Assembly: GCA_016786585.1 (NCBI GenBank)
Contig: JAEUUI010000022.1
Location: 7,826-71,825, forward strand
Reading direction: 5' to 3'
Origin: Cyclobacteriaceae bacterium
Lineage (GTDB): Bacteria > Bacteroidota > Bacteroidia > Cytophagales > Cyclobacteriaceae
DNA: 64,000 nt
The position numbers and the translations under genes are program-made. Below are positions 44,619 through 51,596 of this stretch, piece after piece. Positions within the stretch are counted from its first letter, which is position 1; each line of letters starts with the position of its first letter. Under the pieces are notes generated by a model. That model had not been told where the DNA came from. It saw only the letters and a list, made by a program, of their open reading frames with translations, and did no database searches.

Positions 44619-45335
44619 TTATTTCCGGTTTCCGAAAAATAATGTAAGAAAGAGTGTCGGGTAAACAGAATAGTTTTTAGCCAACACCATCATATCGATT
44701 TTGCGTGTGTATACATCAACCAGCACACCGGCTTCAAAACCTGTAACCTGGCTTTTAAAAATCCCCAACTCAAAGTTCATGGCTGCTTTCAGGTTAAGAC
44801 CCGGAACAATCTTTGAATCGCCCAGTCCCTGAAACAACCGCCCAGGACCCAGGATGTTTTCTTTGGCCATCGTTTCGTTATACTGTGCGCGAATGGTGAT
44901 ATCGTCTTTCAGGTATTCAACATAGTAAGGCGCTTCAACGCCAATGCTTGGACCCGCGGCAAACACAGCTTTTATTTCAACGCCCTGTTGTGGCGCTTTC
45001 TTGAACAGGATAAAATCGCGGCCGTATTGAAGCCTGAAGGTGTAGAGGTAGTTCTGTTTGCCGAACGTGAAGAAGTTGCCGTAAGCCGAATTGAATCGTA
45101 CTTCCTGCGGATGACGAACGTTCATGATCTCCAGCCCGAAGGTTTGCAGCATCCGGTCGGTCATTTTGAATGACTTCTTGAACACGAATCCACCAATTAA
45201 TCCGCCTGACGTATTCTTGTTTAGCCCCCAGGTAAATTCCGACTCATATTCATACCCGTCCTGAACCTGGGCAACCAGGGTTCCGGCAAACATTAACAAA
45301 GTGAGGGAAATCGCTAAAATTCTAATCAACCGCAT
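44619..45335 (-). CDS. Hypothetical outer-membrane beta-barrel-like protein
   Basis: 238 aa with a signal peptide, alternating hydrophobic beta-strand pattern and a C-terminal aromatic-rich end. Confidence 0.6.
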   Translation of the reverse strand: MRLIRILAISLTLLMFAGTLVAQVQDGYEYESEFTWGLNKNTSGGLIGGFVFKKSFKMTDRMLQTFGLEIMNVRHPQEVRFNSAYGNFFTFGKQNYLYTFRLQYGRDFILFKKAPQQGVEIKAVFAAGPSIGVEAPYYVEYLKDDITIRAQYNETMAKENILGPGRLFQGLGDSKIVPGLNLKAAMNFELGIFKSQVTGFEAGVLVDVYTRKIDMMVLAKNYSVYPTLFLTLFFGNRK

Positions 45336-45406
45336 GATCCTTCCGGTAACTTTCTGATAAATTTAGAGGCTTTTAAGGTAACGCAAAAAATTAACTTACG
45401 GTATTT

Positions 45407-45811
45407 ATGACCACACTTACTTCTGTCTACAAAGGCTCATTACGCACTGAAAATACACATACGCGCTCCGGCCAGGTGGTGATTACCGATGCCCCGGTTG
45501 ATAACAAAGGAAAGGGTGAGGCTTTTAGCCCTACCGACCTGGTGTGTACGGCCCTCAGCAGTTGCATGCTTACCACGATGGCCATCGTAGCAGACCGTGA
45601 GCAGGTTGATATGACTGGCATGACCACGGAAGTGGTAAAGATCATGGGTGCGAACCCCAGGAAAATTGCCGAGATACAGGTTACGCTCACCCATCCGGGG
45701 TTAAAGGCCAGCGCTGAGCAAATTGATAAACTGAAACATGCTGCGCATACATGCCCTGTTGCGCTGAGTCTTCATGATTCAGTGAAGCAAACGATCACAT
45801 TTAACTTTTAG
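45407..45811 (+). CDS. OsmC-family peroxiredoxin-like protein
   Basis: 134 aa with two conserved Cys contexts (LSSCMLTTM and HTCPVALSL). Confidence 0.88.
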   Translation: MTTLTSVYKGSLRTENTHTRSGQVVITDAPVDNKGKGEAFSPTDLVCTALSSCMLTTMAIVADREQVDMTGMTTEVVKIMGANPRKIAEIQVTLTHPGLKASAEQIDKLKHAAHTCPVALSLHDSVKQTITFNF

Positions 45812-45905
45812 CATTCGCTAATGCTATAACGGATGACAAATCCGGACAAACTACCATTTCTGCAACGTTTGGCAGCACTTCATCGTCTTCTCAAAAAGAG
45901 TTTTT

Positions 45906-46373
45906 ATGAAGCGATTGATTACCCCAACCACCCTGTGTTTGCTTACATTTTTTGGAACCTTGAGCTTGTCCGCACAAGTACAGTCTGAATTAAAGATCGT
46001 AGACCTTTCAAAAAAAGAGGTCAGGGTTTTTAATGCCGCCCAAAAATTGCCGGATGAGGCGCGCATGAATCTAATAATGGATTCGCTTTTTATTCCCTAT
46101 ACACAATTCTGGAGCAGTTATTTAGGAAGCGAGAAAAAATTTCTTCGATGGGTGAAAAAGGATGTTTATCCGAATCTTGAAAAGCTTAATGAATTGAACG
46201 ACACATTGAATCGTGAAGCCGTTCTGAAAATTGTTTCAGCAGATAAAAGACGTAAGCGCGATAGTATTGTTTACGTGGTGTTTGGACCGGGATGTACAGA
46301 CGTGGGGAGGTTTCAGGATGGCACCGAGGTTGTCGATTTGATGCATGAAAAGTACTCAGCATTGAATCGTTAG
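45906..46373 (+). CDS. Hypothetical secreted protein
   Basis: 155 aa with a signal peptide and no motif. Its 3' end overlaps the convergent ytxJ-like gene by 4 nt. Confidence 0.5.
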   Translation: MKRLITPTTLCLLTFFGTLSLSAQVQSELKIVDLSKKEVRVFNAAQKLPDEARMNLIMDSLFIPYTQFWSSYLGSEKKFLRWVKKDVYPNLEKLNELNDTLNREAVLKIVSADKRRKRDSIVYVVFGPGCTDVGRFQDGTEVVDLMHEKYSALNR

Positions 46374-46711
46374 CCGACTACCTTTCTTTTGATCGCACTA
46401 AAATCGATCCCGTAATGTGAGTTGTCGTACACGGATTTTCCGTTGCGGATAATCAGCACCTGTGGCGACTGATGTTCAACGTTAAACTGCTCGGCAATTG
46501 CATTGGAGATATTCCGGTATGATAACAGATCCAGAAAATATGGCTTGACGTTTGGCACTTCGGCCTCTTTCCAGTTGCGTTCCAGCCGGTCGAGTGCTGC
46601 ACGACTAATGTTGCAGCGGGTGCTGTGTTTGAAGATTAAGATGGTGTTGTCAGACGATTCGTTGACAATGTCGTTCAACTGTTCAGTGCGTTCGAGATAA
46701 TTCCAGTTCAT
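46370..46711 (-). CDS. ytxJ: YtxJ-type monothiol thioredoxin-fold protein (bacillithiol system-associated family)
   Basis: 113 aa. The TRCNIS motif (T-x-C-x-x-S) is in the characteristic KHSTRCNISRAAL context. Confidence 0.75.
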   Translation of the reverse strand: MNWNYLERTEQLNDIVNESSDNTILIFKHSTRCNISRAALDRLERNWKEAEVPNVKPYFLDLLSYRNISNAIAEQFNVEHQSPQVLIIRNGKSVYDNSHYGIDFSAIKRKVVG

Positions 46712-46719
46712 ACAAGTTG

Positions 46720-49455
46720 TTAATCATACCACAAGCCTTTCTCGCCTTTATCGTAGCGTGGCTTTTTCACCTTGTCTTTCAGGTGATCGGGCTGATTTTC
46801 GTTTTTCTTGAATAAACGCGCCCACCATAGCCTAAAGTTCGTGAGCAAGCTTCTTTCTTCGTCTGTATTGTTTTTATTCGTTTTCACGAAACGGGAATCC
46901 GGATAAAGATCTTTCTTCCTGAAAAAGTCGAAACGCTTAAGCTTGATGTTTCCCTGGTAATGGGTGGCATCAAGAAAAGCTTTGCCCGGCTCGCGCACAT
47001 GCAATGCCGCTCGTGCACTGCTTGGATTGCGTTTGTAGTCCCAGTCTCTGCGAACAACGCTGGTGTATTCGCTGGCCCGGATTGAATTTTTGCCTGGTGC
47101 AATTCCCGGCATGGAGCCATCGGCTGCGTGCGGGCGTTTCTTGTAATCTTTTTCTTTAACCTTAACCTGCAGCCCGTTTACGAGATAAGTGGTTTTATCC
47201 GGACGGCTTTTCTTCAGTGCTTCATCGGCCTGGTTAGGATTCTTCAGGTAGTTTTTCTTAAACCTCGGCAACTTAATGCTTCCGGTGTATGCTTCACCCT
47301 GATCGCGCATGGATGGTTGAAAATCAAACTGCCGTTTCTTTTGCGGGAAGTAATCGACATCCGGTTTTTCTTTTTTGCCGCCTTTAATATTTCCCTGGAA
47401 GCGTGCGAGACCTGTACTATTATTATTGCGCACCGTGGTCGGCTGCTCATTGTTGTTCCAATGTTTGCCGCTAACACTTCCGCCACCTTTCGCCTTTGGC
47501 TTGAATTTAATGTTACCCTGATAACGCGAAACGGAGGCATCACCACCGGGATAACGACCTGCGATGGCGCGACCATTATTATTCCAGCTTCCGCTGATGC
47601 TGCCACCTCCTTTTTCTTTGCGCTGAAACTTCATGTTGCCCTGGTACCGGGATACCGAAGCATCGCCACCGGGATACCGACCTGCAATGGCACGGCCATT
47701 ATTATTCCAGCTTCCGCTGATGCTGCCACCACCTTTCGCCTTGCGTTGGAATTTAACATTGCCCTGATAACGCGATACGGAAGGATCTCCACCGGCATTT
47801 CTTCCTGCGATAGCGCGGCCATTGTTATTCCAGCTTCCGCTGATGCTTCCCCCGCCTTTCGCCTTGCGTTGGAATTTAACATTCCCCTGATAACGCGATA
47901 CGGAAGGATTACCTCCGGCATTTCTTCCTGCAATGGCACGGCCATCGTTATTCCAAGAGCCGCTGATGCTTCCGCCACCGGTTACCCGCTTACGTGCCTT
48001 CATGTTACCGGTATACGTTTCACCTTGCGGTGAGTATCCCTTGCGCGGCCGTACGTTGCCTGAATAAAATCCTAAGTTTCCATTAGCCCCGGCATTCTTG
48101 CCTGCAATTGCGCGACCATTGTTGTTCCACGCGCCACTGATGCTTCCGCCACCCTTGATACGTTTGCGTGACTTCATGTTGCCGGAATATGTTTCACCTT
48201 GCGGTGAATAACCTTTGCGTGGCCGTACGTTGCCTGAATAAAATCCTAAGTTTCCGTTAGCTCCGGCATTCTTGCCTGCCACTGCACGGCCATTGTTGTT
48301 CCATGCACCGCTGATGCTTCCGCCACCTTTTATTCGTTTGCGCGATTTAAGATTGCCTGAAAAAAATCCGAGGTTGCCATTCGCCCCGGCATTTCGCGGT
48401 GCAACGGCTCTTCCTCTATTGTTCCAGCTTCCGCGACCAAGTGACCGAACGGGGTTAGCGCTGCCACCTGTGCTTATTTTTCCGGAGACCGAACGATAGC
48501 CGCTTCCCGGTAGTGATGCTGAACGACCGCGGTTTTTTCCACTGATTGATGTCGGAGGCGGAAAGATTCGCTTACCGCCCGGAGCAGGTCGTTTGGTTGA
48601 ATAGTTTCTCCCTTTGATTTTTCTGCCGGCAATGTCGCCCTTCCAGGGTCTTCCGGATTTCGATGCGGTTACATACCCTCCGCGAATCGGTCCACTGTAG
48701 GTACGATCGCCACGCGAAGGCCGCACGCGATAAGGATTAGCGGTTGGATTGATAACAACAGGCTTGCGGGTTTCAAAGTTTTTGGTGCGCAACGGGCGGC
48801 CGGCCAGATCGCCTTTGGTGTAGGGTCGTTCACCTTTTGGTTTTTGATTCCAAAATCCCGCAAAGGGTGTTGTGCTTTTCCGTGAAATGAATGGTCGCGA
48901 TGCCGTACGGGGAGCGGGAGTTCCGTTTACACGTGGTGGATTTTGTTTGGTGCCAAAACGTTTTGCGCGTGCTACCTGACTTCGGTTCGAATAAATCCGG
49001 TAACGCTGCGATCGTTGTGAAGTCGAACGATTATTGACATACCGGTTTCGTTGCGAAAAAAAGTTTCGCGTTCGTCCGGATGCTGAGCCTACAGAAATTC
49101 TTCCGCCCGACTTTGCATTTCGTTTCGAAAGTTGTCCGCTAACTGAGCGGTTATTGGTAAAAGCGTTTTGTCGGTAAAAATTACGATTCGATTTTGTTGG
49201 CCGCGATATCCGCGCGCTGCTGGCCGGAGAAAACCTTCTGGGCCGGAGGCGGTTGTACTTGGGCTTTGACTGATTCTTTTTCCGCGAAACTTTGAAACGG
49301 TTTTCACGCTTGCTGCCTGATCGGACTTCGGGCCGATCACCTTTGGTATTTTGTGCGCTTGCGTCAACGGCATTTAATCCCAATAAGATCAACACAAACC
49401 CGAAGCATAGCAGGGCCTTGCGTAAAAGTTGGGGATATGAGTTGCCTGGAGTCAA
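46720..49455 (-). CDS. Secreted, extremely basic G/N/S/R/K-rich repeat protein of unknown family
   Basis: 911-aa ORF with a signal peptide (LLCFGFVLILLGLNAVDASAQ). Residues 36-340 or so are R/K/S/N-rich low complexity. Eight WNNxGRA(I/V)AG repeats fall at about residues 344-666. A [YF]xG(N/S)[ILMV]K motif recurs along the whole length. Confidence 0.8.
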   Translation of the reverse strand: MTPGNSYPQLLRKALLCFGFVLILLGLNAVDASAQNTKGDRPEVRSGSKRENRFKVSRKKNQSKPKYNRLRPRRFSPASSARISRPTKSNRNFYRQNAFTNNRSVSGQLSKRNAKSGGRISVGSASGRTRNFFSQRNRYVNNRSTSQRSQRYRIYSNRSQVARAKRFGTKQNPPRVNGTPAPRTASRPFISRKSTTPFAGFWNQKPKGERPYTKGDLAGRPLRTKNFETRKPVVINPTANPYRVRPSRGDRTYSGPIRGGYVTASKSGRPWKGDIAGRKIKGRNYSTKRPAPGGKRIFPPPTSISGKNRGRSASLPGSGYRSVSGKISTGGSANPVRSLGRGSWNNRGRAVAPRNAGANGNLGFFSGNLKSRKRIKGGGSISGAWNNNGRAVAGKNAGANGNLGFYSGNVRPRKGYSPQGETYSGNMKSRKRIKGGGSISGAWNNNGRAIAGKNAGANGNLGFYSGNVRPRKGYSPQGETYTGNMKARKRVTGGGSISGSWNNDGRAIAGRNAGGNPSVSRYQGNVKFQRKAKGGGSISGSWNNNGRAIAGRNAGGDPSVSRYQGNVKFQRKAKGGGSISGSWNNNGRAIAGRYPGGDASVSRYQGNMKFQRKEKGGGSISGSWNNNGRAIAGRYPGGDASVSRYQGNIKFKPKAKGGGSVSGKHWNNNEQPTTVRNNNSTGLARFQGNIKGGKKEKPDVDYFPQKKRQFDFQPSMRDQGEAYTGSIKLPRFKKNYLKNPNQADEALKKSRPDKTTYLVNGLQVKVKEKDYKKRPHAADGSMPGIAPGKNSIRASEYTSVVRRDWDYKRNPSSARAALHVREPGKAFLDATHYQGNIKLKRFDFFRKKDLYPDSRFVKTNKNNTDEERSLLTNFRLWWARLFKKNENQPDHLKDKVKKPRYDKGEKGLWYD
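47386..48438 (-). repeat. Intragenic tandem repeats (about 120-177 bp units) inside the basic repeat protein gene
   Basis: WNN motifs start at residues 344, 384, 442, 501, 542, 583, 624 and 666, giving spacings of 40, 58, 59, 41, 41, 41 and 42 aa. Adjacent DNA units are highly similar by eye. Confidence 0.85.
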
Positions 49456-49526
49456 AAAAATAGCCGTGAAAACAGGCTAAGATAGCAATTTTCAGTCATT
49501 TCGACCGGGATGCTTCAAGCCATGAT

Positions 49527-51506
49527 CTAAAACGCCAGCAGTTCTTCAATCTTACTTTTCAGCCGGCCTTTTGGCAGAAAATTTTGTTCGAGTGTTGGAG
49601 CGAAAGGTATGGCTGTATCGAGGCTCGCTACCCGCATTACCGGTGCATCCAGATCGGCAAAGCAATGCTCGCTGATCCACGCTGCTATTTCTCCACCAAT
49701 GCCGCCTGTTAATGTGTCCTCATGAAGAATCAGCACGCGATTGGTTTTCTTAACAGTTTGCTCAACCGCTGCTTTGTCCCAGGGTAATAAGGTGCGTAAA
49801 TCCAGCACATCAGCTTTTACATCCGGCATAGTTTCGAGAATCTCTTTCGCCCAGTGCACTCCCATGCCGTACGTAATAATGGAAAGGTCACTTCCCTCTG
49901 ATACCAGATTGGCTTTACCGATTTCAATGGTGTAATAGTCGTCAGGAATAGAATCTTTTATTGAACGATACAACAACTTATGTTCGAAATACAAATACGG
50001 ATTCGGATCTTCAATGGCTGCACACAGCAATCCCTTTGCATCGTATGGATTGGAAGGATAAACGATCTTCAATCCGGGTGTGTGAAAAAACCACGCTTCA
50101 TTACTCTGAGAATGGAACGGACCGGCAGCCGTTCCTGCTCCGGTTGGCATCCGCACGACAACATCGGCCTGCTGTGCCCAGCGCCAATGTGCTTTTGCCA
50201 GGTTGTTAACAATCTGATTAAAGCCTTCGGTTACGAAGTCTGCAAACTGCATTTCAACCATCGCCTTCATACCCTTGATGGAAAGCCCAAGGCCAGCGCC
50301 TACAATGGCCGATTCACAAATAGGAGTGTTGCGTACACGAGGCTTACCGAATTTTTCAACAAAGCCATCTGTAATTTTAAATACTCCGCCATACTCGGCA
50401 ATATCCTGTCCCATTAAAACAAGATTGTCGTAACGCTCCATGCTTTGTCGCAAGCCATCGCTGATTGCATCAATGAAACGTTTTTCAGTTTTCTTTTCCT
50501 TCTTCGGTTCTACAATAGCTTGCGTGAAGGGCGCATACATGTCAGCAGTTTCAATTTCAGTACTGGCTTCCGGATGCTTTTCTTCAAATGCTGTCGCAAG
50601 TCCGGCTTCAATCTCTTTCTTGATTTTCTTTCGGATAGTCTCTGTGTATTTGGTGTCAATTACACCTTCCGCTATCAGATACTGTTCGTAGTTCTCAACC
50701 GGATCTTTTTTCGCCCACGTTTCCATCAGTTCTTTCGGAACATACTTCGTTCCGGAAGCTTCTTCGTGTCCGCGCATGCGGAATGTGATGCATTCCAATA
50801 ATACCGGACGTGGATTTTTCCGGATTGACTCCGCTAATGTTTTTACGGTGTGGTAAACTTCGAGGACGTTGTTGCCGTCAACCTGAACACCTTCAATTCC
50901 ATAACCGATAGCTTTGTCAACAAATGCCTTGCAACGAAACTGCTCCTGACTGGGCGTAGAAAGTCCGTAGCCATTATTCTCAACAACAAAAATTACAGGC
51001 AAATCCCATACGGCAGCCACGTTAACGGCTTCATGAAAATCGCCTTCGCTCGTGCCACCGTCACCATTGAAAACAACCGTTACTTTCTTTTCACTTTTAA
51101 GTTTTGATGCGAGCGCGATTCCATCAGCAACTCCGTTTTGCGGACCGAGATGTGAAATCATCCCAACAATGTGATGTTCGTTTGTGCCGAAGTGAAACGA
51201 CCGGTCGCGGCCCTTTGTGTAACCCATCATCGTTCCCTGCCATTGCGCAAACAACCTGTCGAACGGCATGTTGCGCGAAGTGAAAACGCCCAGGTTCCGG
51301 TGCATCGGCAGAATGTATTCGTCTTCCTCCAGTGCCTCGGTAATTCCAACGGCAATTGCTTCCTGCCCGATGCCGCTGAACCATTTACTGATCTTGTTCT
51401 GGCGAAGCAGGATGAGCATTTTTTCCTCGATCATCCGGGGTTTCAGGATGGCTTCAAAAAGTTGCTTTAAAACGTTGTCAGCGTATGCCTGGCGGTTGAA
51501 GTTCAT
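49527..51506 (-). CDS. Fused alpha/beta E1 component of a 2-oxoacid (branched-chain type) dehydrogenase, TPP-dependent
   Basis: 659 aa. The N-terminal half has the E1-alpha TPP motif (GDGGTSEGDFHEAVNVAAVW...VVENNGYG). The C-terminal half is E1-beta-like (RVRNTPICESAIVG...). Confidence 0.9.
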   Translation of the reverse strand: MNFNRQAYADNVLKQLFEAILKPRMIEEKMLILLRQNKISKWFSGIGQEAIAVGITEALEEDEYILPMHRNLGVFTSRNMPFDRLFAQWQGTMMGYTKGRDRSFHFGTNEHHIVGMISHLGPQNGVADGIALASKLKSEKKVTVVFNGDGGTSEGDFHEAVNVAAVWDLPVIFVVENNGYGLSTPSQEQFRCKAFVDKAIGYGIEGVQVDGNNVLEVYHTVKTLAESIRKNPRPVLLECITFRMRGHEEASGTKYVPKELMETWAKKDPVENYEQYLIAEGVIDTKYTETIRKKIKKEIEAGLATAFEEKHPEASTEIETADMYAPFTQAIVEPKKEKKTEKRFIDAISDGLRQSMERYDNLVLMGQDIAEYGGVFKITDGFVEKFGKPRVRNTPICESAIVGAGLGLSIKGMKAMVEMQFADFVTEGFNQIVNNLAKAHWRWAQQADVVVRMPTGAGTAAGPFHSQSNEAWFFHTPGLKIVYPSNPYDAKGLLCAAIEDPNPYLYFEHKLLYRSIKDSIPDDYYTIEIGKANLVSEGSDLSIITYGMGVHWAKEILETMPDVKADVLDLRTLLPWDKAAVEQTVKKTNRVLILHEDTLTGGIGGEIAAWISEHCFADLDAPVMRVASLDTAIPFAPTLEQNFLPKGRLKSKIEELLAF

Positions 51507-51561: not shown

Positions 51562-51596
51562 GAAAACACAAAGGCCCTGATAAACAGGGCCTTTGA
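51562..51596 (-). terminator. Rho-independent terminator downstream of the 51616-52470 gene
   Basis: AAAGGCCCTG / CAGGGCCTTT forms a 10-bp stem with a 5-nt loop, followed on the minus strand by GTGTTTTC. Confidence 0.6.

What the first reader, a model, noticed from the sequence alone, without database searches (positions are those of the whole stretch)
46720..49455. 911-aa secreted hyper-basic repeat protein with eight WNNNGRAIAG units and no recognisable family
**Overall layout.** After a signal peptide, the protein is almost devoid of hydrophobic core sequence.

**N-terminal region.** Residues 36-340 or so are R/K/S/N/P-rich, for example RPRRFSPASSARISRPTKSNRNFYRQ.

**Repeats.** Two 58-59-aa units and about five 40-42-aa units follow. 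The general form is KGGGSISG(S/A)WNNNGRA(I/V)AG(R/K)...(Y/F)xGN(V/M/I)K(F/S)(Q/R)RK.

**Recurring motif.** A [YF]xG[NS][ILMV]K motif recurs from the repeat region to the C-terminal part, as in YTGSIKLPRF and YQGNIKLKRF.

**Context.** The DNA repeats are similar enough that copy number could vary by slippage or recombination. The gene lies 9 nt upstream of, and is probably co-transcribed with, a YtxJ-type thiol-redox gene.

**Possible role.** Such a composition would suit binding of polyanions (eDNA, polysaccharide, outer-membrane lipids, mineral surfaces). That is speculation.
Basis: partly seen in the sequence, partly recalled or inferred. Interest (0 to 1): 0.62.

Follow-up and report, generated by a model that had tools for sequence, protein, structure and literature searches.

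The report
Exported polycationic disordered repeat protein family
This is a real, transcribed gene for an exported, probably unfolded 911-residue protein with about 140 excess positive charges. It is the local member of an unannotated single-copy family found in about two-thirds of the genera of one Cytophagales family, and its job in the cell envelope is still unknown.

Summary
ORF 46720..49455 (-) encodes 911 aa with pI 11.45 and net charge +143. It has eight WNN units (41, 58, 58, 41, 41, 41, 42 and 45 aa) and twelve [YF]xG[NS][ILMV][KR] motifs.

Pfam, NCBIfam and PDB profile searches find nothing. The protein is not an orphan, though. At least 721 homologues exist, all labelled "hypothetical".

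A roughly 90-residue C-terminal module (REPGKAF...YQGNIK...HPD...LWWARLFKK...KPRYDKGExGLWYD) defines a wider family. It occurs once per genome in 103 of 151 genomes of the window's GTDB family and almost nowhere else. In marine relatives the same module follows quite different basic repeats (SPRYSxGSPF). Net charge density stays near +0.15 per residue whatever the repeat type.

AlphaFold predicts disorder: mean pLDDT 44 for the whole protein and 63 for the tail. Repeat units differ mostly by synonymous changes, which indicates purifying selection. Metatranscriptome contigs cover the gene and join it to the flanking E1 dehydrogenase and BrxC genes.

My best reading, at about 0.4, is a Sec-exported multivalent polycation. 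It would bind anionic envelope material and be docked by its conserved tail. The link to BrxC is positional only. I found no unit-length copy-number variation within the species.

The parts
46720..49455 (-). Whole ORF X: 911 aa plus stop, TTG start. An exported polycationic repeat protein.
   Evidence: It is single copy in its own genome.
49354..49455 (-). Signal peptide, residues 1-34: MTPGNSYPQLLRKALLCFGFVLILLGLNAVDASA, with predicted cleavage ASA|Q35.
   Evidence: AlphaFold predicts helix 7-32 with block-mean pLDDT 81-88. Small residues at -3 and -1 followed by Gln are conserved in homologues. This fits the Bacteroidetes Q-rule (PMC5837995, PMC10653852). Cys17 is not in a lipobox and is not conserved.
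49276..49353 (-). Conserved mature N-terminal cap, residues 35-60: QNTKGDRPEVRSGSKRENRFKVSRKK. Its first 15 or so residues are nearly charge-neutral.
   Evidence: Q35, N36, T37, K38, G39, D40, E51 and F54 are at least 90% conserved. QNTKGD occurs nowhere else in the genome. A role in starting export is my inference.
48463..49275 (-). N-terminal non-tandem basic region, residues 61-331. It is rich in R, K, S, N and P. It carries conserved short motifs: NxYPQxGRYVNN-like, SRPFISRKS, FAGFWN, and GERPYTKGDLAGRPLRTKNF / WKGDIAGRKIKGRNY.
   Evidence: Invariant columns are D216, G219, N226, W271, G273, D274 and R278. Block-mean pLDDT is mostly below 50 and never above 58.
47362..48462 (-). Tandem repeat array, residues 332-698: eight units of 41, 58, 58, 41, 41, 41, 42 and 45 aa. 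Consensus: KGGGSISG[SA]WNNNGRAIAG[RK]...[YF]xGN[VMI]K.
   Evidence: Units 2 and 3 are 95% identical in amino acids and 88% in nucleotides, with 17 synonymous and 3 non-synonymous codon differences. Units 6 and 7 are 93% and 84%, with 16 and 3.
46996..47361 (-). C-terminal linker region, residues 699-820. It holds 'DQGEAYTGSIK' and two modules of about 35 aa of the type Y[LV]KNPNxxDEALKKxRPxKTTYxVxGLQVKVK / WDYKRNPSSxxAAL.
   Evidence: Some homologues have extra copies of this module (P0051, P0055). Residues 771-790 have block-mean pLDDT 75-79 in the full model. The matching stretch of the tail model reaches 76-86.
46723..46995 (-). Family-defining C-terminal module, residues 821-911: REPGKAF..YQGNIKLKRF..YPDSRF..NKNN..EER..LTNFRLWWARLFKK..QPDHLKDK..KPRYDKGEKGLWYD.
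   Evidence: A 91-position profile (A3) finds 356 clusters at 50% identity among 1.84 billion representatives, with the module at or near the C-terminus in the 150 hits listed. It is present once per genome in 103 of 151 genomes of the family. Marine relatives with other repeat types share it.
46810..46848 (-). Predicted amphipathic Trp/Phe/Arg/Lys helix, residues 870-882: LLTNFRLWWARLF.
   Evidence: Helix 870-882 in the full model and helix 130-155 of the tail model. W878 and R880 are nearly invariant. A role in membrane or partner docking is my inference.
46370..46711 (-). Downstream gene brxC/ytxJ (113 aa), 8 nt after the stop of X.
   Evidence: PF11009, E = 5e-37. The adjacency is positional only.
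49527..51506 (-). Upstream gene for a fused alpha/beta E1 component of a 2-oxoacid dehydrogenase (659 aa), 71 nt before the start of X.
   Evidence: PF00676, PF02779 and PF02780. Metatranscriptome contigs 48199-51501 join it to X. The E1-X-BrxC order is conserved in L001-L003 and L007. In L008 X follows E1 but BrxC is absent.
51569..51595 (-). Terminator-like hairpin upstream of E1 (11-bp stem, 7 GC pairs). It is the likely upstream boundary of the E1-X-BrxC transcription unit.
   Evidence: RNA contig depth falls from about 48 to 7 and then 3 beyond 51506.

Best explanation
X is made as a Sec/SPI pre-protein. The signal peptide is cut at ASA|Q35, and the new N-terminal Gln is probably cyclised, as in most exported Bacteroidota proteins. 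The mature chain of about 877 residues, with roughly 140 excess positive charges, is delivered to the cell envelope.

The mature chain does not fold on its own. It is a 'sticker-and-spacer' polymer. Evenly spaced aromatic-Gly-basic motifs ([YFW]xG[ND][ILVM][KR], WNN, GDIAGR) sit in Arg/Lys/Ser/Asn/Gly spacers.

I propose that it works as a multivalent polycation. It would bind and bridge anionic envelope material, such as anionic lipids or LPS, peptidoglycan carboxylates, or acidic polysaccharide. The tandem units would supply adjustable valency. The conserved C-terminal module (amphipathic Trp-rich helix plus the KPRYDKGExGLWYD tail) would dock the chain to a conserved partner or membrane surface.

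**Shown here:** the gene is real, under purifying selection, single copy and transcribed. The family, the conserved tail, the conserved charge density and the predicted disorder are also shown.

**Inferred:** export and cleavage (from sequence rules), the periplasmic location (no known outer-membrane export signal), and the binding function and tail docking (from composition and conservation only).
For: - **Signal peptide.** There is a conserved n-h-c layout and a [ASVTL]x[AS]|Q site in all aligned full-length homologues. AlphaFold predicts helix 7-32. The Q-rule is documented in PMC5837995 and PMC10653852. The first 15 or so mature residues are near charge-neutral, while the n-region carries +2, which fits an N-in/C-out orientation (sequence).
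- **Disorder.** Mean pLDDT is 44.1 with a 107-sequence alignment, and 681 of 911 residues are below 50. The tail alone gives pLDDT 62.7 and pTM 0.23. There is no hydrophobic run longer than 4 residues.
- **Charge is the conserved property.** Median net charge per residue is 0.151 for WNN-type, 0.143 for SPRYS-type and 0.143 for other members, although the repeats are unrelated. pI is 10.4-11.7 in 107 homologues.
- **Aromatic spacing.** Aromatics are more evenly spaced than in shuffled sequences: CV 0.68 against 0.94, z = -2.6. Homologues give z from -1.5 to -2.9.
- **Selection on the units.** Unit pairs show 16-18 synonymous against 3-4 non-synonymous codon differences.
- **Conserved tail.** It occurs once per genome in 103 of 151 family genomes (88 of 132 genera) and is at or near the C-terminus in the hits listed.
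- **Transcription.** Metatranscriptome contigs cover the gene in four runs from two studies.
- **No known outer-membrane export signal.** There is no T9SS C-terminal domain, no lipobox and no barrel.
Against: - No direct evidence exists for location or for any ligand.
- Exporting about 190 Lys/Arg residues against a membrane potential that is positive outside is energetically awkward. It has not been shown for this protein.
- The tail is not predicted to be a compact domain, so 'docking module' is only a guess.
- The gene is missing from about a third of the genera of the family, so it is not essential for the envelope.
- Strong conservation of exact short motifs within a lineage suggests a specific partner, not merely electrostatic binding.
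- Logan contigs of RNA runs may contain some DNA.
Confidence: 0.4

Rival explanations
1. X is a cell-surface or extracellular matrix protein. It would cross the outer membrane by an unrecognised route and glue cells to eDNA, acidic exopolysaccharide or mineral and floc surfaces.
For: The composition suits polyanion binding. The organism lives in activated-sludge and bioreactor flocs and biofilms. The repeat number and type differ between freshwater/soil and marine lineages, as expected for an interface with the environment.
Against: There is no T9SS C-terminal domain, lipoprotein export signal or barrel. No secretion genes lie nearby. The gene sits in a housekeeping array and is vertically inherited as a single copy. 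No unit-length variation was seen within the species.
Confidence: 0.2
2. X is a periplasmic stress buffer or holdase. It would be a very large analogue of the disordered, Lys-rich acid-shock protein Asr or the basic chaperone Skp, protecting envelope proteins or resetting periplasmic fixed charge.
For: It is exported, disordered and polycationic like Asr. It is transcribed together with housekeeping and redox genes.
Against: It does not match Asr or Skp/OmpH families. It is 8-9 times longer than Asr. The conserved C-terminal module and specific motifs have no counterpart in those proteins. No stress regulator or stress promoter is evident at the locus.
Confidence: 0.1
3. X folds only on assembly. 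The G/N/S-rich units would stack into a beta-solenoid or amyloid-like fibre, or line a periodic polymer, which AlphaFold cannot see for a monomer.
For: The units are G/N/S-rich imperfect repeats with regularly spaced aromatics. Exact unit sequence is under purifying selection.
Against: A net charge of about +0.15 per residue opposes self-stacking without a counter-polymer. AlphaFold predicts no strand structure despite a 107-sequence alignment. There is no Curlin or Fap match and no csgEFG- or fapF-like neighbours. Other lineages replace these units with unrelated ones.
Confidence: 0.08
4. X is not exported. The N-terminal hydrophobic helix would be an uncleaved anchor, and the polycationic chain would stay in the cytoplasm under the positive-inside rule, binding nucleic acid or polyphosphate.
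For: The huge positive charge after a hydrophobic helix would normally favour cytoplasmic retention. This rests on established topology rules and is my inference.
Against: The 15 residues after the h-region are charge-neutral while the n-region carries +2. A canonical AxA|Q site is conserved in all full-length homologues and fits the Q-rule (PMC5837995).
Confidence: 0.05
5. X is a polyprotein precursor. It would be cut at the di- or tribasic junctions between units (KRIK, QRKAK) to release cationic peptides of about 40 residues, for example antimicrobials. Alternatively, it is a periplasmic trap for incoming phage DNA.
For: Units are bounded by basic clusters. A periplasmic repeat effector that blocks phage DNA entry is known (PMC13128918, seen).
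Against: There is no protease, immunity, transporter or defence gene nearby, and the context is housekeeping. The conserved C-terminal module and N-terminal cap have no role in a polyprotein model. Basic residues lie throughout the chain, not only at unit junctions.
Confidence: 0.06

Closest known systems
Asr, the acid-shock protein of Enterobacteria (Pfam PF06392)
   Same: Sec-exported, intrinsically disordered, strongly basic periplasmic protein with low-complexity repeats.
   Different: The Asr precursor is about 100 aa and is processed to a small peptide after acid induction (from my own knowledge). X is 911 aa, has aromatic-Gly stickers and a conserved C-terminal module, and sits in a housekeeping array. 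No sequence match.
T9SS cargo proteins with a conserved C-terminal domain (PF18962, TIGR04183, TIGR04131)
   Same: A Bacteroidota protein family in which a conserved C-terminal segment of about 90 residues follows very variable N-terminal parts.
   Different: The tail of X is not a beta-sandwich. It matches no CTD model. It occurs only once per genome instead of on many cargoes.
Functional amyloid subunits CsgA (curli) and FapC
   Same: Sec-exported, built of G/N/S/Q-rich imperfect tandem repeats.
   Different: Curli and Fap subunits are not polycationic and are encoded with a dedicated secretion pore (from my own knowledge). X carries +143, has no such neighbours, has no predicted beta-solenoid and no family match.
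Arg-rich heparin- and DNA-binding region of Neisserial heparin-binding antigen (NHBA), and cationic amphipathic LPS-binding hairpins (LALF/BPI type)
   Same: Basic, partly disordered envelope segments whose alternating basic and hydrophobic residues bind polyanions. X has similar stretches, for example 'YQGNVKFQRKAK'.
   Different: The resemblance is in composition and pattern only, recalled from my own knowledge. NHBA is a surface lipoprotein with one short Arg patch. X has about 190 basic residues, no lipid anchor and no homology.
Disordered aromatic-rich or polycationic exported proteins of Bacteroidota noted earlier in this scan (e1-2254596, e1-2295323, e1-2213822), paired with FadL-type barrels
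   Same: Exported, almost wholly disordered, aromatic plus Arg/Lys 'sticker-spacer' composition in Bacteroidota envelopes.
   Different: X has no dedicated barrel. The nearby 238-aa OMP-like gene is present in 183 of 201 genomes of the order, against 9 of 201 for X. No sequence similarity was found.

Membership tests
Unannotated 'QNTKGD ... GLWYD' family (this report) | C-terminal module of about 90 residues (YxGxIK ... HP ... WxR ... P..LK ... KP[RK][YF]D[KR]xE..[LIM]W) at or near the C-terminus | tested here: met
   The A3 profile scores 151.5 bits, E = 3e-44, on the window. It finds 356 clusters at 50% identity.
Unannotated 'QNTKGD ... GLWYD' family (this report) | Signal peptide with an AxA|Q site, polycationic low-complexity body (net charge about +0.15 per residue), single copy per genome | tested here: met
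T9SS cargo (type A or B C-terminal domain) | C-terminal Ig-like beta-sandwich matching PF18962, TIGR04183 or TIGR04131 | tested here: not met
   No Pfam or NCBIfam hit at E <= 1. The tail is predicted helical or disordered, not a beta-sandwich.
T9SS cargo (type A or B C-terminal domain) | The same C-terminal domain shared by many cargo proteins in one genome | tested here: not met
   One copy per genome.
Curli/Fap functional amyloids | Curlin_rpt or FapC homology, confident beta-solenoid model, adjacent csgEFG- or fapF-like export genes | tested here: not met
Asr acid-shock protein family | Sequence membership in PF06392 | tested here: not met
   No Pfam hit at E <= 1.
Asr acid-shock protein family | Acid-induced expression and processing to a small peptide | not testable with these tools
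   The available metatranscriptomes carry no condition information.
Outer-membrane beta-barrel proteins | Amphipathic transmembrane beta-strands, a barrel model, and a C-terminal aromatic beta-signal | tested here: not met
   No strands are predicted in the body. The longest hydrophobic run is 4 residues. The chain ends in Asp or Glu in nearly all members.
Bacterial lipoproteins (SPII substrates) | Lipobox [LVI][ASTVI][GAS]C at the end of the signal peptide | tested here: not met
   The only Cys (C17, in 'ALLCF') has Leu at -1 and is absent from most homologues.
Sec/SPI substrates obeying the Bacteroidetes Q-rule | n-h-c signal peptide, small residues at -3 and -1, Gln at +1 | tested here: met
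   ASA|Q35 in X and [ASVTL]x[AS]|Q in homologues. The rule is described in PMC5837995. Actual cleavage was not tested.

The most novel reading that the evidence does not exclude
X would represent a previously undescribed class of bacterial envelope component. It is a very long (400-1300 aa), Sec-exported, intrinsically disordered polycation of fixed charge density (about +0.15 per residue). It would form a gel- or condensate-like layer with anionic envelope polymers. A conserved 90-residue C-terminal module would nucleate or anchor the layer, while lineage-specific repeat cassettes (WNN/YxGNIK, SPRYSxGSPF and others) are swapped to tune valency to the habitat. This would also pose a mechanistic puzzle: how does Sec move about 190 positive charges against the membrane potential?
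Probability: 0.2. Interest if true: 0.75.

Novelty: new variant of a known kind. Interest (0 to 1): 0.52.

Why it matters
Exported, unfolded polycations are hardly studied in bacteria. This family is large: at least 721 clusters at 90% identity, present in about two-thirds of the genera of one Cytophagales family. It is single copy, under purifying selection and transcribed, yet no database annotates it.

It has a clean modular design that invites direct tests:
- a signal peptide
- a conserved neutral cap
- exchangeable basic repeat cassettes
- a conserved tail

Three questions could be addressed:
- What holds or organises the Bacteroidota envelope?
- Does charge density, rather than sequence, carry the function?
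- How does the Sec machinery export a chain with about 140 net positive charges?

Cultured carriers exist (Dawidia, Chryseosolibacter, Marinoscillum, Ekhidna), so localisation, ligand and knockout experiments look feasible.

Tried and rejected
- **Curated family searches.** Pfam and NCBIfam scans of X, of four homologues and of the SPRYS-type relatives found nothing meaningful. The only hits were a sub-threshold DUF6824 match and a weak MFP2b match in one homologue, both likely chance.
- **PDB search.** A profile search with the family alignment gave 0 hits at E <= 10.
- **Structure prediction.** AlphaFold of the whole protein and of the C-terminal 185 residues gave low-confidence, non-globular models. 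Foldseek against the PDB with the tail model found nothing at E <= 0.001.
- **The 238-aa OMP-like neighbour (44619..45335) as a dedicated partner.** I tested this because earlier scan notes describe disordered-protein/barrel pairs. I rejected it: the neighbour is in 183 of 201 genomes of the order, against 9 of 201 for X.
- **A functional link to BrxC.** Rejected, because E1 and BrxC are adjacent without X in a related genus.
- **Homology between X's tail and the two small basic exported proteins in the same slot in another family (L012).** hhalign probabilities are 0.1% and 1.2%, which is not significant.
- **A general sorting signal.** QNTKGD and the C-terminal motif occur only in X in this genome.
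- **Copy-number polymorphism within the species.** Contigs of four DNA metagenomes show no unit-length indels or joints. No Nanopore runs are available.
- **Literature.** Two searches for a described basic periplasmic repeat protein of Cytophagales found nothing relevant.
- **The antisense 301-aa ORF 47128..48033 (+).** This is a by-product of the repeats. The synonymous/non-synonymous pattern and the homologues support the minus-strand frame.


Full report
**What is there**

The minus-strand ORF 46720..49455 encodes 911 residues from a TTG start. It begins with a typical signal peptide, MTPGNSYPQLLRKALLCFGFVLILLGLNAVDASA|QNTKGD. The rest is extraordinarily basic and polar:
- pI 11.45
- 189 Lys+Arg against 46 Asp+Glu, net +143
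- GRAVY -1.12
- G, R, S, K and N as the five commonest residues

In the mature chain no purely hydrophobic run exceeds four residues. No stretch longer than 15 residues lacks Lys or Arg.

Eight WNN units (residues 332-698) have lengths 41, 58, 58, 41, 41, 41, 42 and 45 aa. The 58-aa units are the 41-aa unit plus a 17-aa 'QGETYxGNMK' sub-unit.

Twelve [YF]xG[NS][ILMV][KR] motifs run from the array into the C-terminal part. Two GD[IL]AGR variants lie in the N-terminal part.

At DNA level there are two overlapping tandem arrays, of period 123 (4.0 copies, 82% matches) and period 174 (2.5 copies, 85% matches).

**It is a real, selected, transcribed gene**

Repeat units are more alike as protein than as DNA:
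- Units 2 and 3 are 95% identical in amino acids and 88% in nucleotides, with 17 synonymous and 3 non-synonymous codon differences.
- Units 6 and 7 are 93% and 84%, with 16 and 3.

So the units are old enough to have diverged and are held by purifying selection.

Metatranscriptome assemblies from two studies cover the gene. In two runs from a strain about 97-98% identical, contigs span 45385-47731 and 48199-51501. These cover the 3' part of X plus BrxC, and the 5' part of X plus the whole upstream E1 gene. Depth drops about ten-fold just beyond the E1 start. In two runs from a 100% identical strain, small contigs lie inside X.

A strong terminator-like hairpin lies upstream of E1 (51595..51569). 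None lies between E1, X and BrxC. X ends 8 nt before the BrxC start.

The caveat is that Logan contigs of RNA runs are unstranded and may contain some DNA.

**It is not an orphan**

Pfam and NCBIfam give no hit at E <= 1. A family profile finds no PDB sequence at E <= 10.

The large protein collection, however, holds at least 721 homologues at E <= 0.001. All are 'hypothetical'. They come from Cyclobacteriaceae and Flammeovirgaceae MAGs, Dawidia and Chryseosolibacter.

Among 107 of them:
- length is 672-1009 aa
- WNN units number 1-8
- pI is 10.4-11.7
- nearly all end in GLWYD or a close variant

Alignment shows a mosaic of invariant short motifs separated by variable spacers. It also shows a very strongly conserved last 90 or so residues.

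**The tail defines a wider family**

In two other genera of the same GTDB family, the gene directly after E1 is also a signal-peptide-bearing basic repeat protein, of 389 and 485 aa. In one genome it sits between E1 and BrxC. In the other it lies between E1 and the 240-aa OMP-like gene, with BrxC absent.

These proteins have quite different repeats, about 17-aa 'SPRYSxGSPFxxKxF' units. Yet they carry the same C-terminal module. A third repeat type with the same tail occurs in another family of the order.

I built a 91-position profile of the tail (A3) and used it in several searches:
- Among 1.84 billion representative proteins it finds 356 clusters at 50% identity. In the 150 hits listed the module is at or near the C-terminus.
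- In whole genomes it is present once per genome in 103 of 151 genomes (88 of 132 genera) of the window's GTDB family.
- With the full-length profile (A1), 9 of 201 genomes sampled across the order match: 8 in that family and 1 in another.
- At class level 7 of 401 sampled genomes match, and all 7 belong to the window's own family.

The SPRYS-type proteins come from Marinoscillum, Ekhidna and marine MAGs. NCBI places these genera in Reichenbachiellaceae. It places Dawidia in Chryseotaleaceae.

In X's own genome, QNTKGD, GGGS[IV]SG and the C-terminal motif each occur only in X. X is also the only ORF of 300 aa or more with such a charge density.

**What is conserved is charge and pattern, not the repeats**

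Median net charge per residue is 0.151 in WNN-type members, 0.143 in SPRYS-type members and 0.143 in the others.

Aromatic residues are spaced more evenly than in shuffled sequences. The CV of gaps is 0.68 against 0.94, z = -2.6. Homologues give z from -1.5 to -2.9.

**Structure**

AlphaFold2 with a 107-sequence alignment gives mean pLDDT 44.1 and pTM 0.21. Of 911 residues, 681 are below 50. Only the signal-peptide helix and fragments of the last 180 or so residues rise above 55.

The C-terminal 185 residues alone, with a 38-sequence alignment that includes the divergent types, give pLDDT 62.7 and pTM 0.23. The model shows a long helix over FVKTNKNN...LTNFRLWWARLFKK and a locally confident hairpin, but no compact domain. 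Foldseek finds nothing.

The mature protein is therefore best described as intrinsically disordered, with conserved short motifs and an amphipathic Trp/Phe/Arg/Lys helix near the end.

**Export**

The n-h-c layout, the small residues at -3 and -1, and Gln at +1 are conserved in all full-length homologues. They fit the Bacteroidetes Q-rule for signal peptidase I substrates (PMC5837995, PMC10653852).

The first 15 or so mature residues (QNTKGDRPEVRSGSK) are nearly neutral, whereas the n-region carries +2. This favours the exported orientation despite the huge charge further on. That is my inference from the sequence.

No known outer-membrane export feature is present:
- no T9SS C-terminal domain
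- no lipobox (the only Cys is not conserved and has Leu at -1)
- no barrel

The default location is therefore the periplasm or the periplasmic faces of the membranes. This too is an inference.

**Context**

E1 -> X -> BrxC -> (OsmC on the opposite strand) -> a 240-aa OMP-like gene is conserved in three distant full-length homologues. This is not functional evidence, for two reasons:
- In one genus without X, E1 is followed directly by BrxC.
- The 238-aa OMP-like gene is nearly universal in the order, in 183 of 201 genomes. It is therefore a core gene, not a partner of X.

X is absent from about a third of the family's genera, so it is not essential.

**Copy number**

Relatives about 10-30% diverged have 6-8 units, so units are gained and lost over evolutionary time.

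Contigs from four independent DNA metagenomes were laid on the gene. Three were 100% identical and one about 98% identical. They tile the array without any unit-length insertion, deletion or joint. The units share only 70-88% DNA identity. I see no sign of rapid, contingency-type variation, although short-read contigs have limited power and no long reads were available.

**Interpretation**

The best-supported reading, at about 0.4, is a Sec-exported, disordered, multivalent polycation. It would bind and bridge anionic envelope material. The repeat cassette would provide valency, and the conserved tail would dock the chain to a conserved partner or membrane surface.

The rivals are:
- a surface or matrix adhesin (0.2)
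- an Asr/Skp-like buffer or holdase (0.1)
- a fibre that folds on assembly (0.08)
- a cytoplasm-facing anchored protein (0.05)
- a peptide precursor or phage-DNA trap (0.06)

None can be excluded without localisation and binding experiments.

**Novelty**

The family has no detectable relative among characterised proteins and no annotation. In kind, it resembles the few known exported disordered polycations such as Asr. It differs from them in size, modular design and its conserved tail.

Noticed in passing
window 44619-45335 (-): A 238-aa signal-peptide protein with an OMP-like look (it ends ...TLFFGNRK) has no Pfam family. Yet it has a homologue in 183 of 201 sampled genomes of the order. It is absent mainly from the tiny (about 1 Mb) genomes. 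It appears to be an unannotated core envelope protein of Cytophagales.
   Followed up: partly
window 45906-46373 (+): A 155-aa ORF with a signal peptide and a Q-rule site (LSLSA|QVQ) has no Pfam hit. It is wedged between OsmC and BrxC. In the three relatives examined (L001-L003) OsmC and BrxC abut directly, so this looks like a lineage-specific insertion.
   Followed up: no
L010 5440-5961 (+), genome G041, a genus lacking X: Next to BrxC, on the opposite strand, lies a 173-aa secreted protein. It has an extremely Arg/Asp-rich low-complexity half and a Trp/His/Tyr-rich C-terminal half (GYWHYD..W.DGHW..W.PGHY). It is another exported charged low-complexity protein at the same locus, with no visible similarity to X by eye (no comparison was run).
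   Followed up: no
L012 4387-5395 (-), genome G013, another family of the order: The slot between E1 and BrxC holds two small basic exported proteins: a 214-aa lipoprotein-like Lys/Pro-rich protein and a secreted Lys-rich protein of about 120-157 aa. Weak, non-significant similarities to the two halves of X's tail appear in the same order (hhalign probabilities 0.1% and 1.2%).
   Followed up: partly
window 47128-48033 (+): A 301-aa antisense ORF runs through the repeat array. It is most likely a stop-free by-product of the repeats, not a gene.
   Followed up: partly
L009 5185-6186 (-), genome G173: A contig-truncated family member has a third repeat type: 43-aa units 'REMSGSTKGNTLGREEHKSMMAAKNEELNES...'. 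These are rich in Glu as well as Lys. The gene lies next to pheS instead of E1 and BrxC.
   Followed up: no
window 46700-49500, runs X1, X8, X11: The gene sequence is 100% identical in bioreactor and activated-sludge metagenomes from at least three separate studies (2018-2021). One clone of this Cyclobacteriaceae-like species therefore appears widespread in wastewater systems.
   Followed up: no
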